DNA from: a virus
Direction: 5' to 3' (one strand)
Length of the DNA: 39,244 nt
UHGV virus genome: UHGV-0144129
Shown here: one piece after another, positions 7,314-38,371 of the stretch
Layout: the number at the start of each line of letters is the position of its first letter
Position numbering within the stretch: position 1 is the stretch's first letter
Notes under the pieces: generated by a model
Database searches by the model: none
What the model saw: the letters and a program-made list of their open reading frames with translations, nothing else
Told to the model about the DNA's origin: nothing
Translations under genes and position numbers: made by a program

Positions 7314-7401
7314 CGTTTATTGTGCATAAAAACCCCCTTAGAAGATGAGGTCCATCATACACAATAAACCATTTACGGATAATAATTACCTAAACTTGGT
7401 C

Positions 7402-10053: not shown

Positions 10054-10156
10054 GTTAAATCTCCAGATAGTCGCAGCACCCGTTGCGCCGCATATCTGGT
10101 TATTCTATTACCTGAAAAACCACATATGGATAGATAATCCATAAATACGAAAAGAT

Positions 10157-10173
10157 ATTACCTTTCAGGTGAT
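10157..10173. promoter_or_regulatory. operator-like imperfect palindrome ATTACCT-TTC-AGGTGAT (family A)
   Basis: Member of a recurring TTACCT-N3-AGGTAA family. Lies about 50 bp upstream of the LexA box. Confidence 0.4.
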
Positions 10174-10209
10174 TTGCAAAACGTGCTGGATAGCAAACAA
10201 ATTATTTGC

Positions 10210-10229
10210 TACTGTATAAATATACAGTT
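10210..10229 (+). promoter_or_regulatory. LexA (SOS) box
   Basis: TACTGTATAAATATACAGTT is CTGT-N8-ACAG with an AT-rich spacer and TA flanks; 18 of 20 match the E. coli consensus TACTGTATATATATACAGTA. It sits about 20 bp upstream of the ATG at 10249. Confidence 0.65.
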
Positions 10230-10248
10230 ATTGCATGGAGAAGATAAG

Positions 10249-10506
10249 ATGCAGCAGTATCACTATCCACTGGAAGACGGATTTACCGAAAGGATTCACA
10301 CGCCGGGAGGCGTCAGGTCACTGGTGGAGGGATCGCACTTGATGAAATTACTCCGGGATCTCGATAAGGATGGATTTAATGTCGATGGCCCACTTGCCGA
10401 ACTGACTGCACTGATTAACTACGTCACCAGCTCACAGATGTCTATGCGGGATCTGCAAACACATCTCGACTATTGTGCCGAACAATTACGAAAACAAACC
10501 CGGTAA
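10249..10506 (+). CDS. SOS-controlled mini-antirepressor (stand-alone copy of the Ant C-terminal domain)
   Basis: GGAG 8 nt upstream of ATG. The 85 aa product aligns over its whole length with the C-terminal about 80 aa of both Ant proteins (PLxxGxxxxIHxPxGV...DGxxVxGxxAELTxxxxYxxxxxxxxRDxQTHxxY). Confidence 0.55.
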   Translation: MQQYHYPLEDGFTERIHTPGGVRSLVEGSHLMKLLRDLDKDGFNVDGPLAELTALINYVTSSQMSMRDLQTHLDYCAEQLRKQTR

Positions 10507-10528
10507 ATTTAAAGGCCGCAAGAGCGGC

Positions 10529-11257
10529 CTATCGTTTCGCTTTGTGCTCATCCCAGCACGTTTTGCACCATGCCATTAAGCCGTCCGCATTTTGATTATT
10601 AGGGTAAAAGCTGGTTCGTTTTCTGCGGACATTACAAATTGGGCACCACTTCATATGGCGTGTATTCTTTGGGCCATCGAGACACCTTGCACACCATTTA
10701 GTCAATCCATCTGGATTTTTTGACGATTTCCTGAATTTTTCATATGGAAGGTTTATTCTGCATCGCAAGCACTGCTTGCTACCACTTGAAACTCTGTTAG
10801 CTGATTCTTCTTTTGGCGGCGATACAGAAGGTATTCTTGCTGGCTCTGATATTGCCTGAGGTGCTTTTTTAGATGACTGAGACGATATGTCATCACCAGG
10901 GAATCTTCCATGATATGCCGGACGCGTTGACACTCCAGGTGGAATCTCAGCTGTAAACGGCTTTGGCTGAATCAGTTGCCTCTCTTTTGCTAACTCCTGC
11001 TGTTTATAATATGTCTGGATTACCGCACTATCATAAGCAGGAGGTGCGGAAATATTAGGCGCATTACCTCCAGTTTTTTGAAACTGAGTAGAGGTGTGTT
11101 CTATCACCTGTGTACGATTAATCGTTATCTCCCCATCTTCGGTCTTTATCGTTTTGTTATGATTAACGACCGTACGATCAGAGATCTTAGTCTTGTTCTG
11201 GTTGATAACGTAAATAATCACCGCAACCACACCAACAACTATCCAGAAAACTTCCAT
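10529..11257 (-). CDS. membrane-anchored protein with tandem zinc-ribbon motifs
   Basis: SD GAGG before ATG. N-terminal TM helix, Pro/Ser-rich linker, then two repeats of a P/ADGLxxWCxxC unit with extra CxxC pairs. Transcribed immediately before the tail fibre gene. Confidence 0.5.
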   Translation of the reverse strand: MEVFWIVVGVVAVIIYVINQNKTKISDRTVVNHNKTIKTEDGEITINRTQVIEHTSTQFQKTGGNAPNISAPPAYDSAVIQTYYKQQELAKERQLIQPKPFTAEIPPGVSTRPAYHGRFPGDDISSQSSKKAPQAISEPARIPSVSPPKEESANRVSSGSKQCLRCRINLPYEKFRKSSKNPDGLTKWCARCLDGPKNTRHMKWCPICNVRRKRTSFYPNNQNADGLMAWCKTCWDEHKAKR

Positions 11258-11276
11258 TGCTTTTCCTCACAATAAC

Positions 11277-11293
11277 ATTACCTTAAAGGTAAT
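11277..11293. promoter_or_regulatory. operator-like perfect palindrome ATTACCT-TAA-AGGTAAT (family A), with an adjacent half-site at 11301-11311
   Basis: Perfect 7-3-7 inverted repeat 20 bp upstream of the ATG of the minus-strand gene ending at 11257. A TTTCAGGTGAT half-site follows 8 bp later. Confidence 0.45.
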
Positions 11294-11656
11294 ATCTTGC
11301 TTTCAGGTGATCAAGCGTTAAACGTAATCAACCAAATACGGTTGATTTTAATATTTCTTCGCGTTTATCATTACCTTTGCGGTAAATTTACATTGCACTC
11401 CTCTTGTGCCATAGTAATCGGGCACTGGCAAAATCCAGTGCCGGGATTGGTCTCCCGGATTACTAAGTGGCGCATACCACGCCAGACGTGGTTTTTTTAT
11501 GCGTATAGCACAGTCATGCCAGAATTATGGTGGGCTGAATGGGGGTCCGAAAGGACGCCGGTACCACTTAGGCCGGTAAGACCAACTCCGTTCAGTTCAC
11601 CACCATCTGATTGGTCTCAGCGGTGGTGATGTAATTCGCTAAGTGGAGACGCCATC

Positions 11657-12313
11657 ATGAACGCTCAACTCATCCCCGTATTCAACGGCACTATATCTAA
11701 CGAAACAGCCCTACTTTGTAATGCCCGCGATCTGCACGCTTTTTTAGGTGTTAAAAAGGTGTTTGCAGCATGGATTACAAATCGCATATCAGAATACGAA
11801 TTCATTGAAAATCAAGACTATATTTTGCTTTCCAATTTGGGAAAGCAAACATCTGGTAGAGGCGGCCACAACCGCAAAGAGTACCACCTCACCCTTGATA
11901 CAGCCAAAGAGCTGGCGATGGTCGAGCGTAACGAAAAAGGTCGCCAGGTGCGACGCTACTTCATTGAATGCGAGAAACGTTTAAGACAACAAGAAACAAA
12001 AGTGGAGAAGGTCTTGTCAGGCTTCATGCCCGCCATTATGGAGGCGATCAAGCTGGAAGACAAAAAAGAATACAGCGCCCCACTGAAGCCCGGCTACCGT
12101 AGCCTGATTCATTCGCCGTCTGGTGTTCTCGGCCTGACGGAGAACTCACTGCTGATGAATTTGCTGAACCAGTTACAGGAAGACGGGCACGATGTATCGG
12201 GCGCGGCGGCGGAGCTGACCACCATGTTCTGCTACATCGTTGGTGTGAGCAAATGCCTGCGTGATATCCAGACGCACGCGGAGTACATCAACGACAAGGC
12301 AGGATTCTTCTGA
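11657..12313 (+). CDS. antirepressor-like protein (second Ant; Bro-N/ORF6N-like N-domain plus shared Ant C-domain)
   Basis: N-terminal region ([22 protein letters not shown]...) resembles phage antirepressor / Bro N-terminal domains. The C-terminal 80 aa are near-identical to the C-terminus of the Ant at 13323-14267. Confidence 0.55.
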
Positions 12314-12337
12314 CAGAACGGCGGCACAGGGATGTGC
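12083..12337. repeat. left arm of a ~255 bp inverted repeat (3' end of ant2 plus 25 bp of 3' UTR)
   Basis: Reverse complement matches 13300-13555 at roughly 95 percent, by eye alignment. Confidence 0.7.
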
Positions 12338-12385
12338 CTTTAAATAATTCTGTACAGATTGCAGACTGGGGGTGAATAGCGTACT

Positions 12386-12402
12386 ATTACCTCACGGGTG
12401 AT
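12386..12402. promoter_or_regulatory. operator-like imperfect palindrome ATTACCT-CAC-GGGTGAT (family A)
   Basis: Same left half-site as the other family A sites; about 140 bp upstream of the gene at 12543. Confidence 0.3.
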
Positions 12403-12542
12403 CCATAGCGATTAGGCACCGATACAGGAGGAGCCCACATGAGAAAATTTGACGAGTACGAAGGCGTTTAACATTCGGATAGTTCATTTACCCTAATGGT
12501 AAATCCCGCTTAAAGAAGCATCTATATATTATGAGGTGATGT

Positions 12543-13178
12543 ATGCCACAACAACTGCTGAATCCGGCAAAGGTAACTGAGGTTTTCGCTCATCTGAACG
12601 AAACTCCAGACAACCGCGCCCTGTATTCAGAGTTAGTGAACGGCAACGATGTCACATCTGATGTCAAAGGCGTTTCTCTGGCTCCTGGATACCGCGTTGT
12701 CCGTGTAGACGATCGTAAGAAAGGCGAGATTCCACAGGCGCACTTTGAACTGTCATTGATAAATGACCTCACCGAAGAGGTAGTGTATTACAATCGTGTC
12801 ATTATCCAGCCTGACAGCTATCTTAACTGCCGTCCTGTCACGCAGATATTGGTATGGAGAACCCAGAAGCCTAAGCATCGTGCTGTGCTTCATGATTTCG
12901 CCGGCATCATCTTCATGAACTACCTCTTGGAACGGTACGATATCATCGTGTCAGATCGCAACCAGACTCATGAAGGCATGTCGTTCTGGCAGGCTCGCAT
13001 GTATGACGCACTGGAACTTGGCCTCCACCTCTATGGTTACGACATGATGACATGCGAGCTGATAGAGATGAATAACGAGGAAGAGCTTGAGAAAGGTGAA
13101 ACCTGGTTGTGGGGTGATGCGGAAAACTTCCAAAACAGATTGGCCATAATTTCAAAGCATAAGCTGCCAATAAAATAG
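12543..13178 (+). CDS. hypothetical protein (cargo between the inverted repeats)
   Basis: 211 aa ORF with normal codon usage and its own terminator. No motif recognised. Confidence 0.5.
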   Translation: MPQQLLNPAKVTEVFAHLNETPDNRALYSELVNGNDVTSDVKGVSLAPGYRVVRVDDRKKGEIPQAHFELSLINDLTEEVVYYNRVIIQPDSYLNCRPVTQILVWRTQKPKHRAVLHDFAGIIFMNYLLERYDIIVSDRNQTHEGMSFWQARMYDALELGLHLYGYDMMTCELIEMNNEEELEKGETWLWGDAENFQNRLAIISKHKLPIK

Positions 13179-13185
13179 TTCTTTA

Positions 13186-13208
13186 AGCCCGCGGCGCGGG
13201 CTTTTTTG
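13186..13208 (+). terminator. rho-independent terminator of the 12543-13178 gene
   Basis: gcccgcg-gcg-cgggc hairpin followed by T6. Confidence 0.55.
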
Positions 13209-13244
13209 TGTCTGCGGATTCCCGCCCGGGTGGCGGTGGTATTC

Positions 13245-13272
13245 GTTAAAAACAAGGCCGCGAAAGCGGCCT
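13245..13272 (-). terminator. rho-independent terminator of ant
   Basis: ggccgcgaaagcggcc hairpin; on the minus strand it is followed by a ttgttttt run. Confidence 0.5.
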
Positions 13273-13284
13273 GTGACATGTCAC
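13273..13284. repeat. perfect 12-bp palindrome GTGACATGTCAC (family B, copy 1)
   Basis: Exact palindrome; identical copies at 31802-31813 and 34253-34264. Confidence 0.5.
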
Positions 13285-13299
13285 GATAGTTCCGTTTTG

Positions 13300-13555
13300 C
13301 ACATCCCTGTGCCGCCGTTCTGTCAGAAGAACCCTGCCTTGTCGTTGATGTACTCCGCGTGGGTCTGGATATCACGCAGGCACTTGCTCACACCGACGAT
13401 GTAGCAGAACATGGTGGTCAGCTCCGCCGCCGCGCCCGATACATCGTGCCCGTCGTCCTGTAACTGGTTAAGCAGATTCATCAGCAGTGAGTTCTCCGTC
13501 AGGCCGAGAACACCCGACGGCGAATGAATCAGACTGCGGTAGCCGGGCTTCAGCG
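13300..13555. repeat. right arm of the ~255 bp inverted repeat (3' end of ant plus 3' UTR)
   Basis: See the left arm at 12083-12337. Confidence 0.7.
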
Positions 13556-14267
13556 GATAACCATAACATTTTGTCTGTGTTTTAATTGCCTCACGAAGCG
13601 CATCTAACATCTTGACTGCCACTTCATCATTCTCTGATGCAGATCCAGCAGGGAGATGCTCCCCTTCAAGCGGAACCCGAGCAACAAGAGACAACGCTTC
13701 GGCGAATTGATCTTCATCAATTTCTTTGTACGAACAGCCAAAATGAGATTTCAGTGACGACCACATGGTGATCATCGCCTTAGCCTGTTTTTCTTTTGGC
13801 AGAGACTGACCGCGACTCATGACGAGTTGTTTAATGGCTTCCTGCTGTTCAGTGGTTATTTTACCCGGCAACGCCTTTTTAGCTTTGCGTGGGTTAACCA
13901 CATGGCCTTTAGTCCAGTACTCGTAGAGCACATCGTCACACTCTTCCTGATACTGGATTACCTTGTCGCGGATTTCAGGGCGGACTTTGTTAGGGCTGAT
14001 GGTTTGCAACCAGCCAGCAAGTTTGCGAAGTGCCAAACAAATAATCTCACGGCGCTGTTCATCCCCAGGAAGCTGCATTGTGATTTTCACAATGCAGGTT
14101 TTAAACCGCTGCTTCATTTTCGTAAACTGTGAAGCCCAATCCATACCCATGCCTTCAACGATAGGTTTCATTGGGGTGTACGGTTCTCCGTTGTGATTGA
14201 CAACATAAAGTTCTGCGCCGTGGAATGGCACGTTGATAGTAGATACCGCTGTTGCTATACTCGTCAT
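13323..14267 (-). CDS. ant: antirepressor Ant (AntA-type N-domain plus shared C-domain)
   Basis: N-terminus (INVPFHGAELYVVNHNGEPYTPMKPIVEGMGMDW) is AntA-like. Directly downstream of the arc-like gene, as in P22 immI. Confidence 0.7.
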   Translation of the reverse strand: MTSIATAVSTINVPFHGAELYVVNHNGEPYTPMKPIVEGMGMDWASQFTKMKQRFKTCIVKITMQLPGDEQRREIICLALRKLAGWLQTISPNKVRPEIRDKVIQYQEECDDVLYEYWTKGHVVNPRKAKKALPGKITTEQQEAIKQLVMSRGQSLPKEKQAKAMITMWSSLKSHFGCSYKEIDEDQFAEALSLVARVPLEGEHLPAGSASENDEVAVKMLDALREAIKTQTKCYGYPLKPGYRSLIHSPSGVLGLTENSLLMNLLNQLQDDGHDVSGAAAELTTMFCYIVGVSKCLRDIQTHAEYINDKAGFF

Positions 14268-14339
14268 GTCGTTAATTCCTATACGTAGTTTTACGATACT
14301 GAAGCCCTGACGGTCTGGCCACCGTTGGGCTTCGCTGTT

Positions 14340-14507
14340 TTATGCCACGCTATTCTTCTCACCAGTGAGTCCATACACTTTCCTCAGCTGATAGATAATC
14401 TCTGTATTGAACTTTCGGCATTCTTTTTCGCCATTTCTTTCAATAGCTAACTTCACATCGTCCGGAAAACGAACTCGTCGTTGACACATCTCTTTTGCTT
14501 TTTGCAT
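14340..14507 (-). CDS. Arc-like ribbon-helix-helix repressor
   Basis: Start is the internal ATG (MQKAKEM...) with SD AAGGAG 7 nt upstream. The RRVRFPDDVKLAIERNGEK...NTEIIYQLRK region has an RHH beta-strand plus two helices. Sits between the mnt-like gene and ant. Confidence 0.55.
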   Translation of the reverse strand: MQKAKEMCQRRVRFPDDVKLAIERNGEKECRKFNTEIIYQLRKVYGLTGEKNSVA

Positions 14508-14521
14508 TTCATATCTCCTTA

Positions 14522-14536
14522 GCCCCACCGTGGGGC
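14522..14536. promoter_or_regulatory. operator-like palindrome GCCCCAC-C-GTGGGGC at the ant promoter
   Basis: Perfect 7-1-7 palindrome just upstream of the arc SD. Its CCACNGTGG core recalls the P22 mnt operator (from memory). Confidence 0.4.
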
Positions 14537-14542
14537 AAAACA

Positions 14543-14571
14543 ATTGTCACACCGTGCGTCATTGATGTCAA
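14543..14571 (-). promoter_or_regulatory. candidate sigma70 promoter for arc-ant (P_ant-like)
   Basis: Minus strand: perfect -35 TTGACA (complement of 14566-14571), 17-bp spacer, -10 GACAAT (complement of 14543-14548). The palindrome above lies at the predicted start site. Confidence 0.4.
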
Positions 14572-14627
14572 GCACACGGTGAGGCATACTTCAATCATTG
14601 CAAGTAACTCAATATTTGGTGAAGAAC

Positions 14628-15059
14628 ATGAGCAGAGAAGATCCACAACTAAGGATCAGACTTCCCGTTGAAGTAAAAGAAAAAATAGAAATTTCTGCAA
14701 AAGCCAATAAGCGCTCAATGAACGCTGAAATAGTACAACGTCTTGACACCAGCTTTCTGAAAGATATTCATGAAGATGACGTAATTTCTGCTTATGAAGC
14801 AAAAATTATTGCAAACAATGCACGGCATGAAATATCAAATATTATTTTCAAAAGAACTTTTAATGAAATCAATAAGAAAATAACACTTGGACATACAAGT
14901 TTTTATATAAACCTTAATGACCTTGAACTGGAATCACTTGCAGATAATGATTACCAGATCATCTTTGAAAAAACATTTAATAAGCTCAATGAACTAGGTT
15001 ACATCATCTGTGAAAACTCATGGGATGCAGATGGTTTTGGAATTGAAATACCTGAATAG
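14628..15059 (+). CDS. mnt: Mnt-like ribbon-helix-helix repressor with a long AT-rich C-terminal extension
   Basis: MSREDPQLRIRLPVEVKEKIEISAKANKRSMNAEIVQRLDTSF closely parallels the N-terminus of P22 Mnt (sequence recalled from memory). Divergent from arc-ant. About 60 extra C-terminal residues compared with P22 Mnt. Confidence 0.6.
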   Translation: MSREDPQLRIRLPVEVKEKIEISAKANKRSMNAEIVQRLDTSFLKDIHEDDVISAYEAKIIANNARHEISNIIFKRTFNEINKKITLGHTSFYINLNDLELESLADNDYQIIFEKTFNKLNELGYIICENSWDADGFGIEIPE

Positions 15060-15149
15060 GAAGAACAAAAGGCGTGTACATATTACACGTCTTTAATACA
15101 ATTGAAAAACGCCACATTACTGATGTATGTTACAACAAGGAGCGATATT

Positions 15150-15713
15150 TTGAAAACCATATCTATATTAAAGGTTGCATTAGGCGTCGCTATTATTTTG
15201 ACTCTCTCAATATTGTTTTATTTTTACCACAAAAAAACTGCTATTGCTCTTGATGGTCACGCGGCAAACTCATTTTTCTCAGAGTACATAGTGCCGCTAT
15301 CAGGAAGCGGTATAACAAATAAATATACTGACTATGACATCAAATATGGAATTGATGATGGGGAGACTATTGCATTACATGTAATCATTAAAAACCTAAT
15401 GACAGTAAATAAAAATACAGACTTCAACGATAAAAATACAATACATCACAACAACAGCAAAACATTAATTTCTTATAGTAGCAACATCTATACGGATAAA
15501 TACCTAAAATACATCTCAGAAGATACAATAAAAGCAACCAGCGAAAAGTTAAAAAACATATATTGTGCATCCGGCAGTTTTCACAAATTATCGCCGCAAG
15601 AGCGTTTATTCTACGAAGCAAGAAAACAACGTAAGTCAATAATATTACATTATTATGCTGATTCAGGGGAGTCACTCATATTTAATATTGGGGTTTCCCC
15701 TGAATCATGCTAA
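15150..15713 (+). CDS. AT-rich membrane-anchored moron protein (candidate superinfection-exclusion or defence factor)
   Basis: Best start is TTG at 15150 with SD AAGGAG 7 nt upstream (the ORF track starts it at 15102). N-terminal TM helix (ISILKVALGVAIILTLSILFYF), then an N/K/Y/I-rich domain. Opposite strand to the flanking virion genes. Confidence 0.45.
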   Translation: MKTISILKVALGVAIILTLSILFYFYHKKTAIALDGHAANSFFSEYIVPLSGSGITNKYTDYDIKYGIDDGETIALHVIIKNLMTVNKNTDFNDKNTIHHNNSKTLISYSSNIYTDKYLKYISEDTIKATSEKLKNIYCASGSFHKLSPQERLFYEARKQRKSIILHYYADSGESLIFNIGVSPESC

Positions 15714-15724
15714 AGGCGTTTAAC

Positions 15725-18700: not shown

Positions 18701-18739
18701 TCCGTTATTAAGATCTTCAGCTTGTGCATAAACTGGCAT
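15725..18739 (-). CDS. internal virion / ejection protein (T7 gp15/gp16-like by position)
   Basis: 1004 aa ORF, the last of the large genes between tail tubular B and the tail fibre. Assigned by synteny and size. Confidence 0.5.
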   Translation of the reverse strand: MPVYAQAEDLNNGLIPSGNVLPEQTGFDVALPEGANPEPLPPEPSVWGAAMRQNNILSGFFRPARQFEPVEGYNPYADKNELHGYEYWGAKFADSRSPEETAWIKQQIDDENEDRRLLSDAGVVGTLASIAAGMDPVTVASMFIPGAQGGALARIGSQIAIGAAGTALSEVVLNNQQITRSWGESAAHVAAGAMMSGVFASAGVALSPSVRAAATREVADALDNMSITSATDRAAASLSDGGSVGAMKIDTATLDDLTPVSGGWVGKAAWKAGSYLTPLTRLMESPSKTVRKTTLELAENNFTLKGNERGIETPVAVETRTRGWQREEAAVVVGNKQAYAKYKADGGDMSFDSFRQQVGNAMRSGDVHANPVVQETAQAMRTVLNRVKVEMQKLGLLPPDEELKALGQASYFPRIYKVGKIISERDKFRRILVDWWSRGNKTLDPEDAEIAADIVINKITGAKVPQDFVSVFSVKAAGSTKERTLNVPDSLIRDYLESDVNYVLQRHIREAAAEIELTRTFGKRTMTERLQLIEDEYDSLLREVPKKIKAKYDESVANLKARYESNGEVVPQGKLDSLMRKYEKELRKEQSRLSKSRANDLRDITALRDRLVGTYGMPDDPSSFFVRAGAFLRDVNFTTKLGGMTVSAIPDLARGVMVNGFRNTMKGYASQISQSPAFKASKEEMLKMGIGLEAVLHSRSRAIGDLVDSSSRTTAVEAGMERITDAFGKLTLMDRFNDINKSMNGMLTSDGILSGAFSARRMAKLGINDNMAARIRSEFEKHGEVIDGWHIGNFDKWDDQYVAGVFQSAVLKDVNNTIITPGIGDTPLWASTPMGRTIFQFKSFTTASYNRALLGGLQEGTAQFYYGTAFQIALGSLVYALKEASKGKNVDWSPEKLVLEGIDRSGILGPLMEYNNMAEKATGGAVGLGALFGTGTQSRYASRGFVGSLFGPSFGLADSIIDVTAGVLNGDAGDRIVHNVRTLIPGNNLFWIAPLINQVDPVMR

Positions 18740-21456
18740 TATTTAGATCCCCACGAAAAGTAATCTTTAAATTTGTCCATACGTTCGTTATGCAGGCGCT
18801 GATACTGCTCATCCAGAGCGCGATGCTTGTCTTTGAAGTTTCGTATAGCCTGTCCACGCATAATTTCTTCCTGCTCGTACTGCTCCCGTTCCTGCTGCAT
18901 TTTCTTATAGGGTTCCCAATCTTCTAGTGATGGTTCCCAACGCATAGGACGCCCATGTTTGTTATAAAACGGCTGGACCCGATCGATGCCATTTTCATCC
19001 TTAGTTCTTACCATAATGGCGTAATCACCATTACGGGGTGTTAACACGTCAGGGGTTATGAATAATTCTCCATTAATACGACTCTCAGGGGTTTTTGTCT
19101 CAACTACAGGAGCATTACCTGACGTGATCCCAAGCAACGTCGGGCTGGTTGTTATAATCTCTTTGCGCTCACCGTACATCAGCCGTTCTTTTTCAGCTTT
19201 CCACTGCGCCGCCTGCCAGCCTGACGGCCCATATTGATAAAGCGCCTCCGGTGCATATTTCATAAACTGCGCTTCTCCGTTAACCTCGCTGATACTCCAG
19301 GTGCGGGCTATCTGCTGGTTGGTCATTTGCTTCGCTACGTCAGCGTTACCACCAGCAACGCGGTAGTTAATGTCATACAGCGTCTGATAGTCATTACGGA
19401 ATCTAGCTGCTTCCGGCGTCTGGTCATCCGCAGACGGATCCCAACGGAACCACTGCGCCATATTGCTGACAGCAGAATTCATCGCCTTGCTGCGATCATT
19501 TTTGTACTCTTTTGAACTCTGCGTTGATGCCAATTGAGCTTTAAGAGCATCGGTCTGGTTGTACGTAAGGTTCTGCGCCTGCTCGATAGCCGCATCAGCA
19601 GACATGCCAGAATCAGTTAGTTGCTTAACAGTCAGATAAAAACCCTGCATATCCTTCGGCATATTTCCAATAGATGCATTGTCTGTTTCATATAACCGAC
19701 TAAACAGTTCCGCCGCATTTTTAACCACTTCCTGATTGCTGGATCGGGATACTGCTGAAAGCTGCGTGATGACCTGCGAAGGCATTATGCCAGTCTGAGC
19801 CACAAGCCGAACAACCCCATCATGAGTGGAGGCATCATTAATACGAAAGTTCTGCGCCATTTCTGTGTAATCAGCAGCTTTCTGCATTGACTTGTTGCTT
19901 GGGTCTAATTTTTCACCTATTGTCAGCGCCTCATTGAATCTGCGTGAATCCCGTTGCGCCTGAATTGCTTCATTTGATCTCTGAAGCAATGCAGACAATT
20001 TTCCGTAAGCATCGAGTTTTAACGCATAGTGAGGATCGTTAACCTCAGGCTTCACTTTCTGCATTTCTTCTTGCTGCTGAGAAGGAGGCAAATACTGAAT
20101 TGCCTGGAATATTCTCGCGTTATCAATCGCTATATCCAGTTGATTGATTATTTTATCTGCGTTTTTTCCATACCCCCTGATGATGGTCTCCTGAGCCGGT
20201 ATATAATCTGGAACCTCACCGTTATATAGCTGGGCCATGGTGTTATTAATAGCTGGCTCAAGCTGTTCTAATATTAACTTCCTTTGCTTTTCTATCTGAC
20301 TATTAGCAAGGTTATCTATTTGATAAATAGTCAGCGGATCCATTCCAGTTTTATTTTTTCTATATCGGGAAAGCCACCCTTGTGTTTCTGATGGAAGATT
20401 TCGGATAAATTCTTCTTCTGATATTTCACCTTTACGTGGATCACCGACTTTAGCGATCAGTTTATCCACGTTACCCATCCCCCAGTTATATGCTGCTCCG
20501 GTCAATATTTCGGAACCGTACTTACCATACAGTTGATTTACATAGTCACTGGCGAGCATTTCATGCTGTTGTTCGTCCGTAGGGTTGTATTCAACGCCAC
20601 GCTTGGCCGCCAGTTCTTTTCCTGTGCCCGGCATTAACTGGTATTTCCCCTGGGCTCTCTCTCCAGAAGATGTTATCGGTCCCTCAAGAAGACTACCATC
20701 AGGATTAAAATGTCGATCACCTGATTCAACAAGGCGTATGGCACGCATGTCCATGCCTCCAGAATCATTTTTCTGAAACAGACCATTTAGCCATCCTTCT
20801 GGATTGGCAGCGGCATAATTCTTCGCCCGCATTTCTGTGGCACTGCGATCATCACTTTCTATTTCTTCCAGAATGCGTTCTTGTGACCATCCCCTGGCAG
20901 CTCCATATCTGGCAATGGCTACCATTCTGGAATTTCTGGCTAAAGTGGCAGTTTGCGGGTCATTCCAAGCATCCGCTTCATTTTGTATCCATAATTTTCT
21001 CGTTGCCTGATATTGCTCATCTTCATAGGCATTTGTCTGCCCTATCTCATGTCTGAGAACTCCAGTACTGAACTGAATTTTCTGTGTTCTGGCTTGTTGC
21101 AAAAACATATTTCTTGCAGCTTCATCAGTCAATGAAGCAGCTATTTCTTCCACATCCTGATCAAATCCAGATATGTACTCTTGCCCCTTACCAATCGCAT
21201 TTTTGCCTTGTTGTGCATAAAAACCGGTTTGAGGGTTATAAAGACGTTCATTGCTGCGCTGATTAAGCTGAAGGATGGCATCCTGAGACAATGCAACATT
21301 CGCTTTCTGCCTGGCTTCACCATATGCCACCGCATACTGATCTGCGACATTCGCCAGCACTTGGCCTGCTTGAGGAACATCGAAGGTCTGAAAACCACCA
21401 GTTTGCACACCACGACTTTGCACCTGACGTCCGGATGTAGTAGGAACAACAGGCAT
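18739..21456 (-). CDS. internal virion protein with lytic transglycosylase (SLT) domain
   Basis: SLT motifs LVESG ... GKYQLMPGTG ... AAYNWGMGNV (ES / GLMQ / AYNAG pattern). 905 aa. Position matches T7 core proteins. Confidence 0.65.
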   Translation of the reverse strand: MPVVPTTSGRQVQSRGVQTGGFQTFDVPQAGQVLANVADQYAVAYGEARQKANVALSQDAILQLNQRSNERLYNPQTGFYAQQGKNAIGKGQEYISGFDQDVEEIAASLTDEAARNMFLQQARTQKIQFSTGVLRHEIGQTNAYEDEQYQATRKLWIQNEADAWNDPQTATLARNSRMVAIARYGAARGWSQERILEEIESDDRSATEMRAKNYAAANPEGWLNGLFQKNDSGGMDMRAIRLVESGDRHFNPDGSLLEGPITSSGERAQGKYQLMPGTGKELAAKRGVEYNPTDEQQHEMLASDYVNQLYGKYGSEILTGAAYNWGMGNVDKLIAKVGDPRKGEISEEEFIRNLPSETQGWLSRYRKNKTGMDPLTIYQIDNLANSQIEKQRKLILEQLEPAINNTMAQLYNGEVPDYIPAQETIIRGYGKNADKIINQLDIAIDNARIFQAIQYLPPSQQQEEMQKVKPEVNDPHYALKLDAYGKLSALLQRSNEAIQAQRDSRRFNEALTIGEKLDPSNKSMQKAADYTEMAQNFRINDASTHDGVVRLVAQTGIMPSQVITQLSAVSRSSNQEVVKNAAELFSRLYETDNASIGNMPKDMQGFYLTVKQLTDSGMSADAAIEQAQNLTYNQTDALKAQLASTQSSKEYKNDRSKAMNSAVSNMAQWFRWDPSADDQTPEAARFRNDYQTLYDINYRVAGGNADVAKQMTNQQIARTWSISEVNGEAQFMKYAPEALYQYGPSGWQAAQWKAEKERLMYGERKEIITTSPTLLGITSGNAPVVETKTPESRINGELFITPDVLTPRNGDYAIMVRTKDENGIDRVQPFYNKHGRPMRWEPSLEDWEPYKKMQQEREQYEQEEIMRGQAIRNFKDKHRALDEQYQRLHNERMDKFKDYFSWGSK

Positions 21457-22034
21457 CAGTAACCTCCTATTTTGAATCGGGAGTCAGAATTCATAAAGCC
21501 TGAGTTAGATAACATTGGCGTTCCACCACCAGATGCACTTCCTTTAGAGAATGGGCTCCACGTTCCTCCGCTCATCTGGTATGCACCGTATGCTTTTAGT
21601 GGTGCCGTTAACAAAGTGCTGGTCATCGATGATTTAGCAGCCGACTGAGCAGCAGCCCCCTGTGCCTGAGCATTCATTCCCTGAACCTGATACCCATATG
21701 CCTCACGCTGAGCATTATTCACTGTCGTTAACGCATCAAGAGTGCCGAACTGAGCATTATCCGCAAAAACGTCAAGAGCTGTTCCGCTACTTAATTCCGC
21801 ACCGGTAGCCCCCATAGTAGCCGCCGCAGTGCCTGAGCGTTGACGCATTTCACGACGACGCTGATCCGCTTCAATATTCCCACGATTGATTGAATCCTGT
21901 GCCTGAGCTTCAGCAATTTCAGTATTCCGATCTGCTATGGCTGACTGGTATTTTGCCTGCTTGCTCTGGCTGTACATTGACGCTGCTGTGGATGCCACTG
22001 TGACGGCAACCAAAGCGATGGCTGGGTTACACAT
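21456..22034 (-). CDS. internal virion protein (gp14-like by position)
   Basis: 192 aa, Ala/Gln/Gly-rich with an N-terminal hydrophobic segment. Synteny only. Confidence 0.4.
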   Translation of the reverse strand: MCNPAIALVAVTVASTAASMYSQSKQAKYQSAIADRNTEIAEAQAQDSINRGNIEADQRRREMRQRSGTAAATMGATGAELSSGTALDVFADNAQFGTLDALTTVNNAQREAYGYQVQGMNAQAQGAAAQSAAKSSMTSTLLTAPLKAYGAYQMSGGTWSPFSKGSASGGGTPMLSNSGFMNSDSRFKIGGY

Positions 22035-25903: not shown

Positions 25904-25947
25904 TCCTGCAATAAAGGGGCCGAAGCCCCTTGTCTGATTCGCGAGGC

Positions 25948-34602: not shown

Positions 34603-34873
34603 TATTTACCTTTATCGCGAACACCTTTACCGGTTTATCACCGAAGTGCGGATGTGTGATTGTCTTGATTTCATATCCGTCATACGGAACATCAATTCTA
34701 CGGCTGGAATCGTCGCGCTTCGGATATCCCTTTGTGATAATCAGGCGGTCATACTCCCGGAACATAATTCGCTTATTCCAGTAGTCATTACACAAGCGAT
34801 ACTCTTCCGTTTTCTCTCCACGAATCATGGCATCGAAGTATTCACCTTTGACGGCAAGTTGCAGGTTAGCCAC
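34592..34873 (-). CDS. ASCH/PUA-like (DUF3850-like) small protein
   Basis: LAVKGEYFDAMIRGEKTEEYR pattern at the N-terminus resembles ASCH-domain phage proteins. Family assignment is tentative. Confidence 0.35.
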   Translation of the reverse strand: MANLQLAVKGEYFDAMIRGEKTEEYRLCNDYWNKRIMFREYDRLIITKGYPKRDDSSRRIDVPYDGYEIKTITHPHFGDKPVKVFAIKVNIDG

Positions 34874-35153
34874 GACCTTCCTCCTTTGGCTTGTGAATTT
34901 GTATCGTCATGCCGCTTTGAGTGGTGACTACAACGACAGAACCAGGCTGAAGGCTGTTAAGATTGAATGCTTCGTAAAACGAATCCAATGCCAGTGCTTT
35001 TTTATTCTTTCGGTTCCACCAACGCCATCCCTTGCTACAGGCTACATCGACAATCCACTGTCCACTCCTGTAAGCCATATAAAACCAGATGAGCAAAACC
35101 TGAAGGAATGCTATCCAGTCAATAATCGTATATTTCGCGAAGGAGTCCATCAC
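34866..35153 (-). CDS. small membrane protein
   Basis: Start at the internal ATG that overlaps the upstream stop (ATGA). TM helix YTIIDWIAFLQVLLIWFYMAY. Confidence 0.4.
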   Translation of the reverse strand: MMDSFAKYTIIDWIAFLQVLLIWFYMAYRSGQWIVDVACSKGWRWWNRKNKKALALDSFYEAFNLNSLQPGSVVVVTTQSGMTIQIHKPKEEGRG

Positions 35154-35836
35154 TTCACCTCCTGCGGCGGTTCTGGTAGCGGCATCCAGAACAAGGCGTT
35201 CCCTAACCACGATAAAGTGCCGTCGCTCAACTCCACGTATTCCCCTTGTACCTGTCCTGCCATATACTCGCCGTGCTTTGAATAAATTAAAATCCAATCA
35301 TCTTGAGGGGGCATTCGCTCACTACAGCTTATCCAACCATCCGGAATTACCGGAGAGTTGCCATTTACATCGAAGTTTGGCTCTGCGTCCTGAACCAGGA
35401 GGATGTAACCATTCTTGGCTGTATCAAGTTCTAACGCTTCGGTGACGGTGCCGAAATAGCGATTACCTAAATCAGCATCACAAGTGCTTATATCAATGGA
35501 AACTTCCATGCCTTCGATTAATTCTGGCAAGTTGTAAGTTTGGCTTACAGGTTGGCTACCCTGAAGCATGGCGGCGCGGTGACACCAGATAATCCAGCCA
35601 AGCGCCATATCCCATGCCATGTATTCTCTATCGCCATTTTTTGCCCTACGGCGATCTACAGATTCCCCGAAACGCTTCTCCATAAATAATTCATAGGCTG
35701 CTCGTTCATCCGATACTACTGCCAGCGATGCCAGAGCAATTTCATAAGCCCGACGCTCAATATTGTCTCGGACGTCCAGGCTGCCTATACGCTCTCTGAT
35801 TTCTTTAATCAGTTCTTTGTCGGTTAAAGTGGTCAT
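35150..35836 (-). CDS. DUF551-domain protein (Eaa-like)
   Basis: C-terminus DGWISCSERMPPQDDWILIY ... WMPLPEPP is the DUF551 signature found in lambdoid early-region proteins. Confidence 0.5.
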   Translation of the reverse strand: MTTLTDKELIKEIRERIGSLDVRDNIERRAYEIALASLAVVSDERAAYELFMEKRFGESVDRRRAKNGDREYMAWDMALGWIIWCHRAAMLQGSQPVSQTYNLPELIEGMEVSIDISTCDADLGNRYFGTVTEALELDTAKNGYILLVQDAEPNFDVNGNSPVIPDGWISCSERMPPQDDWILIYSKHGEYMAGQVQGEYVELSDGTLSWLGNALFWMPLPEPPQEVK

Positions 35837-36366
35837 GCTGCGTTTCCTTCTTTCTTATTAACAATTACACCGTCATATATTTCATTAAGGTGTCCTCTTA
35901 GCTCCATGCGCCTTAATGCAGATAACATGTAATCGCATTCAACCTGCTTATTCCCAGTAAATGGCTTATCGTCAGGATTACCCCAACAGCAATTACCCCT
36001 GGGCCATCCATGTACTTTCCGTACTCTTCCGTTAACAACGTGAAGTAATCCCCAGCCGGGAGGTAAATCCTCAACTGAAATAATTTCCGGCTCACTAATA
36101 AAGAATCGCCAGTCGCCCATGCCAAGTGAGGGATTTTTACGGAAACGCTTTTTTCTATCTGCCAACAAGTCAGCACGAGAACACTTCGCCTCTATCAGGC
36201 ATGATGCTGAATTTCTGAATCCCATAGCATCTGGCTGTTCTCCGGTACTGGTTACAGCAACAAAGCGGTCATGAAAGCAAACCTTGAACCCGTTGCGCTT
36301 AAGGAACTTGTACGCAATCTGACAGAGTTCGTGGTGTGTTAACGCCATATCACTTTCCTTTCCCAT
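35833..36366 (-). CDS. putative PD-(D/E)XK-fold nuclease
   Basis: QPDAMGF ... CLIEAKCS gives a PD ... ExK arrangement. 177 aa. Motif-only call. Confidence 0.35.
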   Translation of the reverse strand: MGKESDMALTHHELCQIAYKFLKRNGFKVCFHDRFVAVTSTGEQPDAMGFRNSASCLIEAKCSRADLLADRKKRFRKNPSLGMGDWRFFISEPEIISVEDLPPGWGLLHVVNGRVRKVHGWPRGNCCWGNPDDKPFTGNKQVECDYMLSALRRMELRGHLNEIYDGVIVNKKEGNAA

Positions 36367-36377
36367 GTTGTCATGTG

Positions 36378-36665
36378 TTAGTCCTCATCCACTTCAACCC
36401 CATATTTCAGCGTGATGCCGTGCCAATCATCAGCCCAACTGGTTAGCCCTGGCGCATCAATGCTAGGCATATAGACGCTTGCAGTGTGGTAGCCCTTATC
36501 GTTATCAATGCTGGCAACGTGCTCGCCGTTGTATGCGCTCAGCGTGTCCAGGACGCTATAAAACTTTCCTCCGGCTGCCCTGAAATCCTTTACAGCCTTT
36601 ACAAGGCGATTCCACGCTTTTTCCTGTTCTGGCGTCAGGTCGATTAATTCCTGCAAAGTTGCCAT
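36378..36665 (-). CDS. hypothetical protein
   Basis: 95 aa acidic ORF, coupled to its neighbours. Confidence 0.35.
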   Translation of the reverse strand: MATLQELIDLTPEQEKAWNRLVKAVKDFRAAGGKFYSVLDTLSAYNGEHVASIDNDKGYHTASVYMPSIDAPGLTSWADDWHGITLKYGVEVDED

Positions 36666-36666
36666 A

Positions 36667-37401
36667 TCACCCTCCTTTGATGCCTATATTTACAGCCAGG
36701 CAAGCCTCTTTGAGCACCCAGTCAATAGCGTCTTTCCATGCCCCTGTTTCGACGGGAGGATTCGTGTGCTTTACCTGGTCGTAGAAGCGTACTGCTTTAA
36801 CCAGTCCTTCCGGCACCACTGGCACTGGCTGTTTAGCTTCTAAATCAGCAATTCTGTCAACCACGGCATCGACGGCATCTGAAAAACTGAAACAGTTACT
36901 CCACTCCGGCCTGTTCCCAGTTGCTGCAAAGTACATATCAGCTAAAGCAGACTCAGCATGGTCACGCTCATTGATGAGTAGCTCTTCGCTTTTCTCCAGT
37001 TCAGCAATACGCTTACTCCCATCCGAGATAACACCTTCGTAATACTCACGCTGCTCGTTGAGTTTTGATTTTGTCTGCTCAAGCTCAACGCGCAGCTTCC
37101 CTACCGTTAGCGCAATTTCCTCGTTCTCCTGGTCACGGCGTTTGATGTATTGCTGGTTTCTTTCCCGTTCATCCAGCAGTGCCTGCACTACTTCTGGGTT
37201 GAAAGCTGCGATATAACGAGCGTTGTTCTCTGCGTTTTTCTGTCCATCAAAGCCGGTCCATTTGATAACGTCTTCACATCGTTTATCACCGGGCGTATGC
37301 ACCGCATACGTACCAGTACCCGTCGAAATAAATGCGACCCATTCGCCCTGTGTTGCCTGTTTTGCTATCTCACGCAGTGCCTGATAATTAATTTCGCTCA
37401 T
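36667..37401 (-). CDS. Ead/Ea22-like protein
   Basis: MSEINYQALREIAKQATQGEWVA N-terminus and a central coiled coil, typical of Ead/Ea22-like proteins of lambdoid early regions. Confidence 0.5.
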   Translation of the reverse strand: MSEINYQALREIAKQATQGEWVAFISTGTGTYAVHTPGDKRCEDVIKWTGFDGQKNAENNARYIAAFNPEVVQALLDERERNQQYIKRRDQENEEIALTVGKLRVELEQTKSKLNEQREYYEGVISDGSKRIAELEKSEELLINERDHAESALADMYFAATGNRPEWSNCFSFSDAVDAVVDRIADLEAKQPVPVVPEGLVKAVRFYDQVKHTNPPVETGAWKDAIDWVLKEACLAVNIGIKGG

Positions 37402-37416
37402 TCATCGCCCCACTCA

Positions 37417-37574
37417 TCACAATATGCTTCGACAGGTGTTTTTCCTGCTTCGTAGTCATCACGCCAGGCTTCAGCATCAGCAGCACTTCCACCACGTAAC
37501 TCTGCATAATCCATTAACAGTTCATGCCATTCTTCAAAACTGACGTTGTATTTAGTTGAACCAAAATCAGCCAT
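37417..37574 (-). CDS. small acidic protein (52 aa)
   Basis: Hand-translated; not in the ORF track because it is under 60 aa. Strong SD GGAGGAAG before the ATG; stop 16 nt from the next start. Confidence 0.3.
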
Positions 37575-37657
37575 TTTGTTCTTCCTCCTCGTCTTTTATT
37601 TCGTGATATGAGTAATTGCAGTAGTTAAAGAAAATTTCTTTTGCTTCGTCATGAATT

Positions 37658-37885
37658 TCATCTGGTGTTGTCGCCAACAACATCGCAGAATGCCTGAACT
37701 GCCTTACGAGCCAGTTCATTCTCCGCCGCCAGCGCATTAGCACGCGCCAGTTGCACTTCCAGTTGCGTTGCCAAATCGCTGATCAGCTTTGCCACACTGC
37801 GCATATCAACGGCACCACATTCTGCTTTCAGTTCCGAAGCCATCTCATGCCCGGCGGCAACTAACCCTTTGATATTACTTTCCAT
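37658..37885 (-). CDS. hypothetical protein
   Basis: 75 aa helical ORF in the nin-like region. Confidence 0.35.
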   Translation of the reverse strand: MESNIKGLVAAGHEMASELKAECGAVDMRSVAKLISDLATQLEVQLARANALAAENELARKAVQAFCDVVGDNTR

Positions 37886-37946
37886 CTTTACCCTCGCTTA
37901 TCCACATAACTTATTGATTACATTGATAACTAAAAAGATCGTCGAT

Positions 37947-38291
37947 TCAGAACTCTTCGATGTTCCAGCCACCACCTGCTTTCTTTGGTTTAACCGTTAC
38001 CCCGATGATTCGGAACGGATACTGATCTGCGGCGACTTTGGTTTTCACCCTGGCGTCGTCGGTCCAGAAACCTTTCACTTCGTGCAGTTCCATCTCGCCG
38101 GTGGCGAGCATCACAGCAAAATCGGGCGTATAGAACGTGTTGTCAGCTAACCGCAACTTGATACCCTCAAATCGATACCAGACGATTCCCCCTGCACGTT
38201 TACGCTGCTCAAGGTGCTGGCAATACGCAGATTCTGTTTTGTTCATCTGGCCTGTTTTGAGTCGACCAAGAGCCTGTATCTGTTTTCTCAT
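37947..38291 (-). CDS. putative Holliday-junction-resolvase-like nuclease (PD-(D/E)XK fold, DUF1064-like)
   Basis: YTPDFAV ... GEMELHEVKG gives a PD ... E.K arrangement as in Hjc-type resolvases. First gene after P, where lambdoid phages carry recombination/resolvase functions. Confidence 0.35.
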   Translation of the reverse strand: MRKQIQALGRLKTGQMNKTESAYCQHLEQRKRAGGIVWYRFEGIKLRLADNTFYTPDFAVMLATGEMELHEVKGFWTDDARVKTKVAADQYPFRIIGVTVKPKKAGGGWNIEEF

Positions 38292-38295
38292 GATT

Positions 38296-38310
38296 TACCT
38301 CTAAGGTAAT
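38296..38310. promoter_or_regulatory. operator-like perfect palindrome TTACCT-CTA-AGGTAA (family A)
   Basis: Lies 5 bp upstream of the ATG of the 37947-38291 gene and overlaps its SD. Confidence 0.4.
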
Positions 38311-38356
38311 TAAAAACCACATAAGACACGAAATCAATAGAGTTTAGAATATTTTG

Positions 38357-38371
38357 TTACCCAACAGGTAA
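38357..38371. promoter_or_regulatory. operator-like palindrome TTACCC-AAC-AGGTAA (family A, one mismatch)
   Basis: About 47 bp from the previous site, just downstream of a weak hairpin plus T7 terminator after P. Confidence 0.35.

What the first reader, a model, noticed from the sequence alone, without database searches (positions are those of the whole stretch)
10157..38371. Dispersed operator family TTACCT-N3-AGGTAA (six copies): an unidentified regulon
Perfect or near-perfect copies occur at 10157-10173, 11277-11293 (plus a half-site at 11301-11311), 12386-12402, 30765-30781, 38296-38310 and 38357-38371. Every copy is intergenic and sits at a transcription-unit start: upstream of the mini-antirepressor, in the divergent region between the zinc-ribbon gene and ant2, upstream of the 211-aa cargo gene, upstream of the tRNA locus next to a TTGACA hexamer, and twice between P and the first nin-like gene just after a weak terminator. 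That distribution suggests one DNA-binding protein, probably the prophage repressor or a dedicated accessory regulator, coordinating antirepressors, the moron locus and delayed-early genes. No candidate binding protein is encoded inside the window with certainty.
Basis: seen in the sequence. Interest (0 to 1): 0.65.

Follow-up and report, generated by a model that had tools for sequence, protein, structure and literature searches.

The report
Prophage repressor operators, epsilon15-type phage
The repeated palindrome is real and is the binding site of the master repressor (Rep) of an epsilon15/phiV10/TL-2011b-like prophage. The same sites are already annotated in phage epsilon15, so this is an ordinary, largely known feature, not an unidentified regulon.

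Summary
The core TTACC-N5-GGTAA occurs 10 times in the window with at most 1 mismatch, against 0.77 expected. All copies are intergenic if terS starts where it does in epsilon15. Four copies were missed: 11371, 12488, 33956 and 33974.

The window is an epsilon15-like (Uetakevirus, TL-2011b-type) prophage inserted at guaA. Its closest relatives encode a 194-aa repressor about 1.5 kb beyond the window end. That repressor is homologous to Salmonella phage SPC32H Rep (PDB 5D50_A, E=4e-42). The same palindrome flanks the rep gene at the PL and PR promoters.

The epsilon15 RefSeq record annotates ATTACC-N5-GGTAAT as 'repressor' binding sites at the homologous dispersed positions. Seven genomes from four host genera keep the sites in the same relative positions, with invariant half-sites and a free spacer. 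They also keep a fixed 62-bp pair (63 bp once) at two promoters.

The 'mini-antirepressor' is the SPC32H Ant homologue (E=1.4e-46) and sits behind a LexA box.

Best model: tetrameric Rep silences each lytic transcription unit directly, and SOS-induced Ant releases all of them at once. Rep binding was not tested here.

Novelty is low. A second, unannotated palindrome (AACCATATATGGTT) at late promoters is the more interesting by-product.

The parts
10158..10172 (.). Rep operator in the divergent region between ant and the tail-fibre gene (TTACCTTTCAGGTGA).
   Evidence: Homologous to the annotated epsilon15 repressor site 19895-19911. On the minus strand it fills the spacer of TTGCAA-N16-TATCTT, which points at the tail-fibre gene. 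The flanking hexamers are conserved in 6 genomes.
10210..10229 (+). LexA (SOS) box TACTGTATAAATATACAGTT in the ant promoter.
   Evidence: the only match in the window, with 0 expected.
10249..10506 (+). ant: small antirepressor, homologue of SPC32H Ant. It inactivates Rep.
   Evidence: PDB 5D50_E, E=1.4e-46, nearly identical over 83 residues.
11278..11292 (.). Rep operator (perfect) upstream of the 242-aa zinc-ribbon gene 10529-11257(-).
   Evidence: The same site is in TL-2011b at 34478.
11301..11311 (.). Half-site CTTTCAGGTGAT. Probably a truncated copy of the 10158 site left by recombination.
   Evidence: Read from the sequence. The minus strand ATCACCTGAAAG is identical to the minus strand of the 10158 site. 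It is also present in TL-2011b (flanks). Its function was not tested.
11371..11385 (.). Rep operator at the start of the isrK-C4-antA unit.
   Evidence: predicts TTGATT-N18-TATCAT ending at 11371, so the operator begins at the last base of the -10. Syntenic copies: phiV10 20497, Tyrion 21393, TL-2011b 34385.
11422..11607 (+). isrK-like and C4 antisense RNAs, the leader of the AntA-type antirepressor gene 11657-12313. These are regulated targets.
   Evidence: Rfam RF01394 at 67.7 bits, RF01695 at 61.2 bits. (AntA domain, E=4e-26).
12387..12401 (.). Rep operator after antA and before the cargo genes.
   Evidence: Homologous site in TL-2011b at 33333, with a shared flank.
12488..12502 (.). Rep operator 41 bp upstream of the 211-aa gene 12543-13178.
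   Evidence: perfect core. The gene belongs to PHROG 1349, function unknown.
30744..30780 (+). Promoter TTGACA-N17-TACCTT pointing at tRNA-Arg and the 139-aa gene, with the Rep operator 30766-30780 covering its -10.
   Evidence: TGTCAA lies exactly 16 nt from the operator in 6 of 6 genomes. Homologous to the annotated epsilon15 site 2931-2947.
33956..33988 (.). Pair of Rep operators (33956-33970 and 33974-33988, 18 bp apart) at the 5' end of terS.
   Evidence: Homologous to the annotated epsilon15 site 12-27, which lies upstream of terS there.
38295..38371 (-). Delayed-early promoter between P and the DUF1064 gene. It reads TTGATT (38337-38332)-N17-TTTAAT (38314-38309). Two Rep operators bracket it (38357-38371 and 38295-38309), 62 bp apart centre to centre. 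The downstream operator also contains the Shine-Dalgarno GAGGT of the first gene.
   Evidence: The 62-bp pair is conserved in all 7 genomes. The epsilon15 site 35906-35922 is annotated as repressor-binding.

Best explanation
The palindromes are the operators of the prophage's master repressor Rep. Rep is a 194-aa protein with an N-terminal helix-turn-helix and no self-cleaving peptidase domain. It is homologous to Salmonella phage SPC32H Rep and is encoded about 1.5 kb beyond the right end of the window.

In the lysogen, Rep binds ATTACC-N5-GGTAAT at or next to the core promoter of nearly every lytic transcription unit. According to the literature it binds DNA as a tetramer. Outside the window the units are PL and PR. 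Inside the window they are:
- the delayed-early promoter after P
- terS
- the promoter region between tRNA-Arg and the structural operon
- the region between ant and the tail-fibre gene
- the isrK-C4-antA antirepressor unit
- the zinc-ribbon gene
- the 211-aa cargo gene

At three promoters the operator starts at the last base of the -10. At one it contains the -10. At one it fills the spacer. Two promoters are bracketed by a pair of operators exactly 62 bp apart, which suits one tetramer holding both sites.

DNA damage cleaves LexA and derepresses the small Ant (10249-10506). Ant takes the Rep tetramer apart, and all operators are vacated together.

Shown here: the motif, its enrichment, its positions, its conservation, and the homologies. 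Inferred: Rep binding itself, repression at each site, and looping.
For: Enrichment: 10 copies against 0.77 expected, all intergenic.

The window is an epsilon15/phiV10/TL-2011b-type prophage.

Immunity region. In the two nearest contexts the motif occupies PR/PRM with 2 strong sites plus 1 weak one. E. coli P4 is 100% identical over the last 2445 bases of the window. Contig L008 carries the identical P and Rep. The motif also brackets PL (TTGACA-N17-AATTAT), with one site starting at the last base of the -10.

Homologies. Rep matches PDB 5D50_A at E=4e-42. Ant matches 5D50_E at E=1.4e-46. There is a LexA box.

Prior annotation. epsilon15 RefSeq marks seven 'repressor' binding sites, all ATTACC-N5-GGTAAT. 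Four are dispersed sites homologous to window sites.

Conservation. Site classes are syntenic in phiV10, epsilon15, Tyrion, SPC32H, TL-2011b and Klebsiella BUCT711. In 58 aligned sites from the six genomes, positions 1, 3-5 and 11-13 are invariant and the spacer is free.

Recognition helix. The stretch N36-W41 (NLVNRW) is invariant among Reps that are only 43% identical overall.

Spacing. The pairs at PL and at the delayed-early promoter are 62 bp apart in every genome, except one pair of 63 bp in the Klebsiella phage.

Literature. Rep binds palindromic DNA as a tetramer, the DNA-binding domains that pair up come from different dimers, and Ant splits the tetramer (PMC9638917, PMC9986798, both citing Kim et al. 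2016).
Against: No binding experiment could be done. The primary papers (Kropinski 2007; Kim and Ryu 2013; Kim et al. 2016) are not in the held library, so the published operator sequence could not be checked.

The epsilon15 'repressor' features may themselves be predictions.

rep lies outside the window, and the exact source genome is not in the collections.

Because every available Rep has the same recognition helix and the same motif, a clean protein-operator covariation test was not possible. The Moraxella Mcat9 relative gives only a weak hint.

The 76-aa Cro-like protein may bind some of the same sites.

For several sites (12387, 12488, 11278) no convincing sigma-70 promoter was found.
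Confidence: 0.9

Rival explanations
1. The sites are bound mainly by the 76-aa Cro-like lytic repressor, encoded next to rep, rather than by Rep. Alternatively both proteins bind them, as lambda Cro and CI share operators.
For: A Cro-like gene (PHROG 35, 'transcriptional repressor') sits divergently from rep, with the motif between the two genes. In lambdoid phages Cro and CI share operators (established knowledge).
Against: Shutting down terS, tail-fibre and delayed-early promoters during lytic growth would be counterproductive. The fixed 62-bp pairs suit a tetramer with two DNA-binding pairs, which is what is reported for Rep (PMC9638917). The epsilon15 record names the bound protein as 'repressor, lysogeny'. 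This reading complements the best explanation more than it competes with it.
Confidence: 0.06
2. The palindromes are conserved junction sequences where phage modules recombine, with no regulatory role of their own.
For: A truncated copy lies next to the inserted zinc-ribbon module (11301-11311). Sites sit at the borders of accessory modules that differ between P4, TL-2011b and the window.
Against: This does not explain the fixed geometry relative to -10 and -35 hexamers. It does not explain the 62-bp pairs, or the invariant half-sites with a free spacer at sites inside conserved backbone regions. It also does not explain their presence on both sides of rep. Recombination at operators is better seen as a consequence of their conservation.
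Confidence: 0.02
3. The palindromes act in RNA, as small hairpins for processing, termination or translation control.
For: Each can form a 6-7 bp stem with a 3-nt loop. One overlaps a Shine-Dalgarno sequence.
Against: The hairpins are weak (-4.0 to -5.3 kcal/mol, z from -0.3 to -2.6) and have no U tract. Across 58 aligned sites the stem positions are invariant rather than changing in compensating pairs. Several sites lie upstream of the predicted transcription start.
Confidence: 0.01
4. A host transcription factor binds the sites.
For: None specific. The motif is conserved across Escherichia, Salmonella, Enterobacter and Klebsiella phages, whose hosts share many regulators.
Against: There is no copy in the roughly 5 kb of host DNA in the window. 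The motif clusters around the phage's own rep gene. I recalled no enterobacterial regulator with this consensus; that is from memory and was not tested.
Confidence: 0.01

Closest known systems
Repressor-binding sites annotated in Salmonella phage epsilon15 (RefSeq NC_004775.2)
   Same: Same 17-bp palindrome ATTACC-N5-GGTAAT. Same dispersed positions: before terS, before the structural operon, between gp19 (ant) and the tail fibre, at PL, and before the delayed-early genes.
   Different: The window's prophage is TL-2011b-type. It has extra copies on accessory modules that epsilon15 lacks (zinc-ribbon gene, isrK-C4-antA, 211-aa gene). The epsilon15 record leaves several matching sites unannotated: the three at PR/PRM, 24704 and 35969.
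Rep/Ant immunity system of Salmonella phage SPC32H (PDB 5D50, 5D4Z; Kim and Ryu 2013; Kim et al. 2016)
   Same: Rep (E=4e-42) and Ant (E=1.4e-46) are homologues. There is a LexA box before ant. The SPC32H genome has 10 exact-core copies at the same kinds of position.
   Different: Rep is only 42-43% identical overall, although the recognition helix is identical. The published work as cited in held papers concerns the proteins. One held paper says the mechanism of gene repression 'has not been extensively characterized' (PMC9986798).
Phage P1 C1 repressor with operators scattered over the genome, including the immI operon (c4-icd-ant) and coi
   Same: One repressor controls many separate transcription units, including an antirepressor operon that starts with a C4 antisense RNA (for C4; the P1 facts are from my own knowledge).
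   Different: P1 operators are asymmetric 17-mers with a different sequence. C1 is unrelated to Rep. This is a functional analogy only.
Mycobacteriophage L5 gp71 'stoperators'
   Same: Many repressor sites are spread through the prophage (own knowledge; PMC1934351 mentions multiple asymmetric operators in mycobacteriophages).
   Different: Stoperators are asymmetric, depend on orientation, and block elongation inside transcribed regions. Here the sites are palindromic and sit at promoters.

Membership tests
Rep operator set of epsilon15-like (Uetakevirus) phages | Palindrome ATTACC-N5-GGTAAT | tested here: met
   10 copies with at most 1 mismatch to the core. The information profile of 58 sites gives T-T-A-C-C / G-G-T-A-A with flanking A and T.
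Rep operator set of epsilon15-like (Uetakevirus) phages | Copies flank the rep gene at the PL and PR promoters | tested here: met
   Met in the nearest relatives only, because rep is outside the window: E. coli P4 (L002 sites 13841, 13872, 13889, 14601, 14663) and contig L008.
Rep operator set of epsilon15-like (Uetakevirus) phages | Dispersed copies at the positions annotated in epsilon15 | tested here: met
   The terS, structural-operon, ant/tail-fibre and delayed-early classes line up in 6 genomes.
Rep operator set of epsilon15-like (Uetakevirus) phages | Physical binding by Rep | not testable with these tools
   Needs EMSA, footprinting or ChIP. The primary papers are not held.
SPC32H-type Rep/Ant induction circuit | Rep homologue without a self-cleaving peptidase domain | tested here: met
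   5D50_A, E=4e-42 over the full length. Pfam finds only helix-turn-helix families. The gene lies outside the window.
SPC32H-type Rep/Ant induction circuit | Small Ant homologue under LexA control | tested here: met
   5D50_E, E=1.4e-46. A LexA box lies 20 nt upstream of the start codon. LexA control itself is inferred.
Lambda-type CI operators (repressor cleaved with RecA) | Repressor carries an S24 peptidase domain | tested here: not met
   No peptidase family was found in Rep.
P22 Arc/Mnt operators (the window encodes an Arc-like protein) | The motif should occur only where arc or mnt is present | tested here: not met
   The motif is equally abundant in phiV10, epsilon15 and SPC32H, whose records annotate no Arc-like protein. 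There is no copy inside the Arc/Ant/sar module at 13323-15059.
Mycobacteriophage stoperators | Asymmetric sites, one orientation, inside transcribed regions | tested here: not met
   The sites are palindromic and lie at promoters.

The most novel reading that the evidence does not exclude
The prophage may carry two layers of dispersed control sites. The first is the Rep operator. It also seems to travel with, or be acquired by, newly inserted accessory modules. Examples are the zinc-ribbon gene, the isrK-C4-antA antirepressor and the 211-aa gene, and a truncated operator at 11301-11311 looks like a recombination scar. The second layer is an unannotated near-palindrome, AACCATATATGGTT. It is conserved before the structural, lysis and tail-fibre operons and after the cro terminator in six genomes. 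It would be the site of an unidentified regulator of late transcription, possibly the PHROG-536 protein encoded just before terS.
Probability: 0.35. Interest if true: 0.5.

Novelty: new member of a known kind. Interest (0 to 1): 0.22.

Why it matters
It gives a complete, testable map of the Rep regulon for a common E. coli prophage type. It shows that the repressor acts directly on late, delayed-early and accessory units, not only at the immunity switch. The strictly conserved 62-bp operator pairs offer a concrete DNA geometry to test against the published tetramer model of Rep. Beyond that, it mainly transfers existing knowledge from epsilon15 and SPC32H to this prophage.

Tried and rejected
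Literature. I tried to read the primary papers and none is held: Kropinski 2007 (DOI and PMC2698709), Kim et al. 2016 (PMC4983836), Kim and Ryu 2013 (PMC3807360). Searches for the operator sequence or for Uetakevirus operators found nothing relevant. The ZX5 paper does not describe operators.

Source genome. The exact source is not in the E. coli collection. Strain P4 is identical only over the replication end of the window and differs by a 703-bp indel and in the cargo region.

RNA hairpins. Rejected as the main reading: the folds are weak and the stems show no compensating changes.

Arc/Mnt-like proteins as binder. Rejected, because genomes with no Arc-like protein annotated keep the motif.

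Site near int. The copy next to int (beyond the window; TTACCTTAAAGGTAT in relatives) keeps a fixed mismatch and sits inside a longer conserved inverted repeat. I did not count it as an operator.

Covariation. Only a weak hint was obtainable, from Moraxella phage Mcat9.

Promoters. The promoter scan found no sigma-70 match for the structural-operon side of the 30766 site, or for the sites at 11278, 12387 and 12488.
Full report
**Observation**

Dinucleotide-preserving shuffles give 1.04 on average and never more than 5.

The conserved core is TTACC-N5-GGTAA. It has 10 copies with at most 1 mismatch, against 0.77 expected: 10158, 11278, 11371, 12387, 12488, 30766, 33956, 33974, 38295 and 38357.

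Four copies were missed. About 9.5% of the window is non-coding. All ten sites fall in that fraction if terS starts where it does in epsilon15 (P about 6e-11). Eight of ten do so with the longer RefSeq start (P about 2e-7).

**What the window is**

The region 10000-12700 and the right end match epsilon15-like podophages: phiV10, TL-2011b, ZX5 and others. Gene order follows phiV10 in reverse. The two very large virion proteins and the P22-type Arc/Ant module match TL-2011b.

The last 2445 bases are 100% identical to a prophage at guaA in E. coli strain P4. P4 is not the exact source. It differs by a 703-bp indel and in the cargo region.

Reading on from the window end in P4, the genes are a DnaT-like gene, a small gene, a 76-aa Cro-like gene, a divergent 194-aa helix-turn-helix repressor, the early-left operon, and integrase. 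A metagenome contig that carries the identical P protein has the identical repressor and 2995 of 3000 identical bases there.

**Who binds the sites**

*Immunity region.* Just beyond the window, the motif occupies the region between the cro-like gene and rep, with two good copies and one weak copy. It also brackets the PL promoter (TTGACA-N17-AATTAT). One copy lies upstream of the -35. The other starts at the last base of the -10.

*Homologies.* The repressor matches Salmonella phage SPC32H Rep over its whole length (PDB 5D50_A, E=4e-42). It sits 20 nt downstream of the only LexA box in the window.

*Prior annotation.* The epsilon15 RefSeq record carries seven 'protein_bind: repressor, lysogeny' features. 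Every one reads ATTACC-N5-GGTAAT. Four of them are the dispersed sites homologous to window sites: before terS, before the structural operon, between gp19 (ant) and the tail fibre, and before the delayed-early genes.

So the family is the Rep operator set of this phage group.

**Conservation**

The core is enriched in every relative examined: 14 copies with at most 1 mismatch in phiV10, 15 in epsilon15, 15 in Tyrion (Enterobacter), 18 in SPC32H, 14 in TL-2011b and 13 in Klebsiella phage BUCT711. Shuffles of SPC32H give about 0.7.

The sites fall into syntenic classes. In 58 aligned sites from the six genomes, positions 1, 3-5 and 11-13 never vary. The five central bases and the flanks vary freely. 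Invariance without compensating changes is what protein recognition predicts, not an RNA stem. The hairpins are also weak, at -4 to -5 kcal/mol.

The Reps of these phages are as little as 43% identical overall. Even so, the stretch N36-W41 (NLVNRW) of the N-terminal domain is invariant. This explains why they share one operator.

A distant N-terminal homologue in Moraxella phage Mcat9 has a different sequence at that stretch. It is preceded by degenerate TTACYT-N3-ARGTAA-like repeats. This is only a weak hint of covariation.

**Geometry and likely mechanism**

| Promoter | Hexamers | Operator position |
|---|---|---|
| PL (outside window) | TTGACA-N17-AATTAT | starts at the last T of the -10 |
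| isrK-C4-antA | TTGATT-N18-TATCAT | 11371, starts at the last T of the -10 |
| Delayed-early, after P (minus strand) | TTGATT-N17-TTTAAT | 38309-38295, starts at the last T of the -10 |
| tRNA-Arg | TTGACA-N17-TACCTT | 30766-30780, contains the -10 |
| Tail-fibre (minus strand) | TTGCAA-N16-TATCTT | 10158 site fills the spacer |

- The delayed-early hexamers were read from the sequence. That operator also contains the ribosome-binding GAGGT of the first gene.
Its exact 16-nt distance from the operator is conserved in 6 of 6 genomes.
- At the tail-fibre promoter both hexamers are conserved.
- The 10158 site lies about 25 bp upstream of the candidate ant -35 hexamer and 38 bp upstream of the LexA box. 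Direct Rep control of ant is therefore doubtful.

The operator pairs at PL and at the delayed-early promoter are exactly 62 bp apart, centre to centre, in the six Escherichia, Salmonella and Enterobacter genomes. In the Klebsiella phage they are 62 and 63 bp apart.

Papers that are held report that SPC32H Rep binds palindromic DNA as a tetramer. The two DNA-binding domains that pair on one site come from different dimers. Ant splits the tetramer into dimers that bind DNA poorly (PMC9638917, PMC9986798, both citing Kim et al. 2016).

The best-supported model follows from this. One tetramer can hold two operators and trap a promoter between them. Rep silences each lytic unit directly. SOS cleavage of LexA lets Ant be made. 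Ant then clears all operators at once.

Rep binding, repression at each site, and looping are inferred, not shown.

**What is particular to this prophage**

Copies occur on modules that epsilon15 and SPC32H lack:
- the 242-aa zinc-ribbon gene (PHROG 6762, with Lar-like and endonuclease VII-like zinc-ribbon similarity)
- the AntA-type antirepressor preceded by isrK and C4 RNAs
- a 211-aa gene of unknown function

Putting a second antirepressor under Rep control resembles phage P1, where C1 controls the c4-icd-ant operon (own knowledge). It would reinforce induction once Rep starts to fail. The third antirepressor module (P22-type Arc/Ant/sar) has no copy.

**Comparison and verdict**

The feature is a member of a known and already annotated operator family, in a well-studied repressor/antirepressor system. 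It works like the dispersed operators of P1 C1 but is unrelated in sequence and protein. It is not like the asymmetric stoperators of mycobacteriophage L5.

The label 'unidentified' is not.

Novelty is low. The residual value is the full site map, the conserved 62-bp pairs, and the wiring of accessory modules.

**By-product**

A second near-palindrome, AACCATATATGGTT, is enriched in all six genomes: 2-6 copies with at most 2 mismatches, against 0.07-0.27 in shuffles. It is syntenic before the structural, lysis and tail-fibre operons and after the cro terminator. It is not annotated in epsilon15 and has no identified binder.

Noticed in passing
window 7367-7380, 10118-10131, 11330-11343, 30714-30727; half copy 38315-38322: A second dispersed near-palindrome, AACCATATATGGTT. 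It has 4-6 copies per genome with at most 2 mismatches (2 in epsilon15, 3 in SPC32H), against 0.07-0.27 in shuffles. It is syntenic in six genomes before the structural operon, the lysis operon and the tail-fibre gene, and after the cro terminator. In the late units it ends 7 nt before a -10-like hexamer. At the antA and after-cro promoters it overlaps the -35. It is not annotated in epsilon15, and the binder is unknown.
   Followed up: partly
window 11422-11498 and 11523-11607, with 11657-12313: isrK-like and C4 antisense RNA genes precede an AntA-domain antirepressor, a P1 immI-like or Gifsy-1 IsrK/AnrP-like module. Two tandem promoter candidates were found. The upstream one ends at the Rep operator. 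The downstream one (TTTACA-N17-CATAGT) ends 7 nt before the isrK start.
   Followed up: partly
window 13323-15059: A third antirepressor module of P22 immI type. It has an Ant with a P22_AR_N domain (13323-14267, minus strand), sar antisense RNA (14269-14336) and an Arc-like protein within ORF 14598-15059 (plus strand). It carries no Rep operator. One prophage therefore carries three different antirepressor systems.
   Followed up: no
window 11293-11311: The 'half-site' shares 12 bases (ATCACCTGAAAG on the minus strand) with the operator at 10158. It lies at the edge of the zinc-ribbon gene module. It looks like a scar of recombination within an operator. The same arrangement is in TL-2011b.
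   Followed up: partly
window 33950-34034: The RefSeq-style terS start (TTG at 34034) puts two Rep operators inside the coding region. In epsilon15 the homologous operators lie upstream of the annotated start. The shorter start, near 33950, is probably correct here.
   Followed up: partly
L002 19745-19759 (beyond the window, next to int): A motif-like sequence, TTACCTTAAAGGTAT, is conserved in all relatives with the same mismatch. It sits inside a longer inverted repeat (GACGGTA...TACCGTC) near the attachment site. It may be an integrase or attP element rather than a Rep operator.
   Followed up: no
window 30800-31100: About 300 bases lie between the Rep-controlled promoter and tRNA-Arg, with no tRNA or Rfam hit. 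phiV10 annotates an ORF (p04) on the opposite strand there, and epsilon15 annotates an RNase III site. This may be a processed leader or an undescribed RNA.
   Followed up: no
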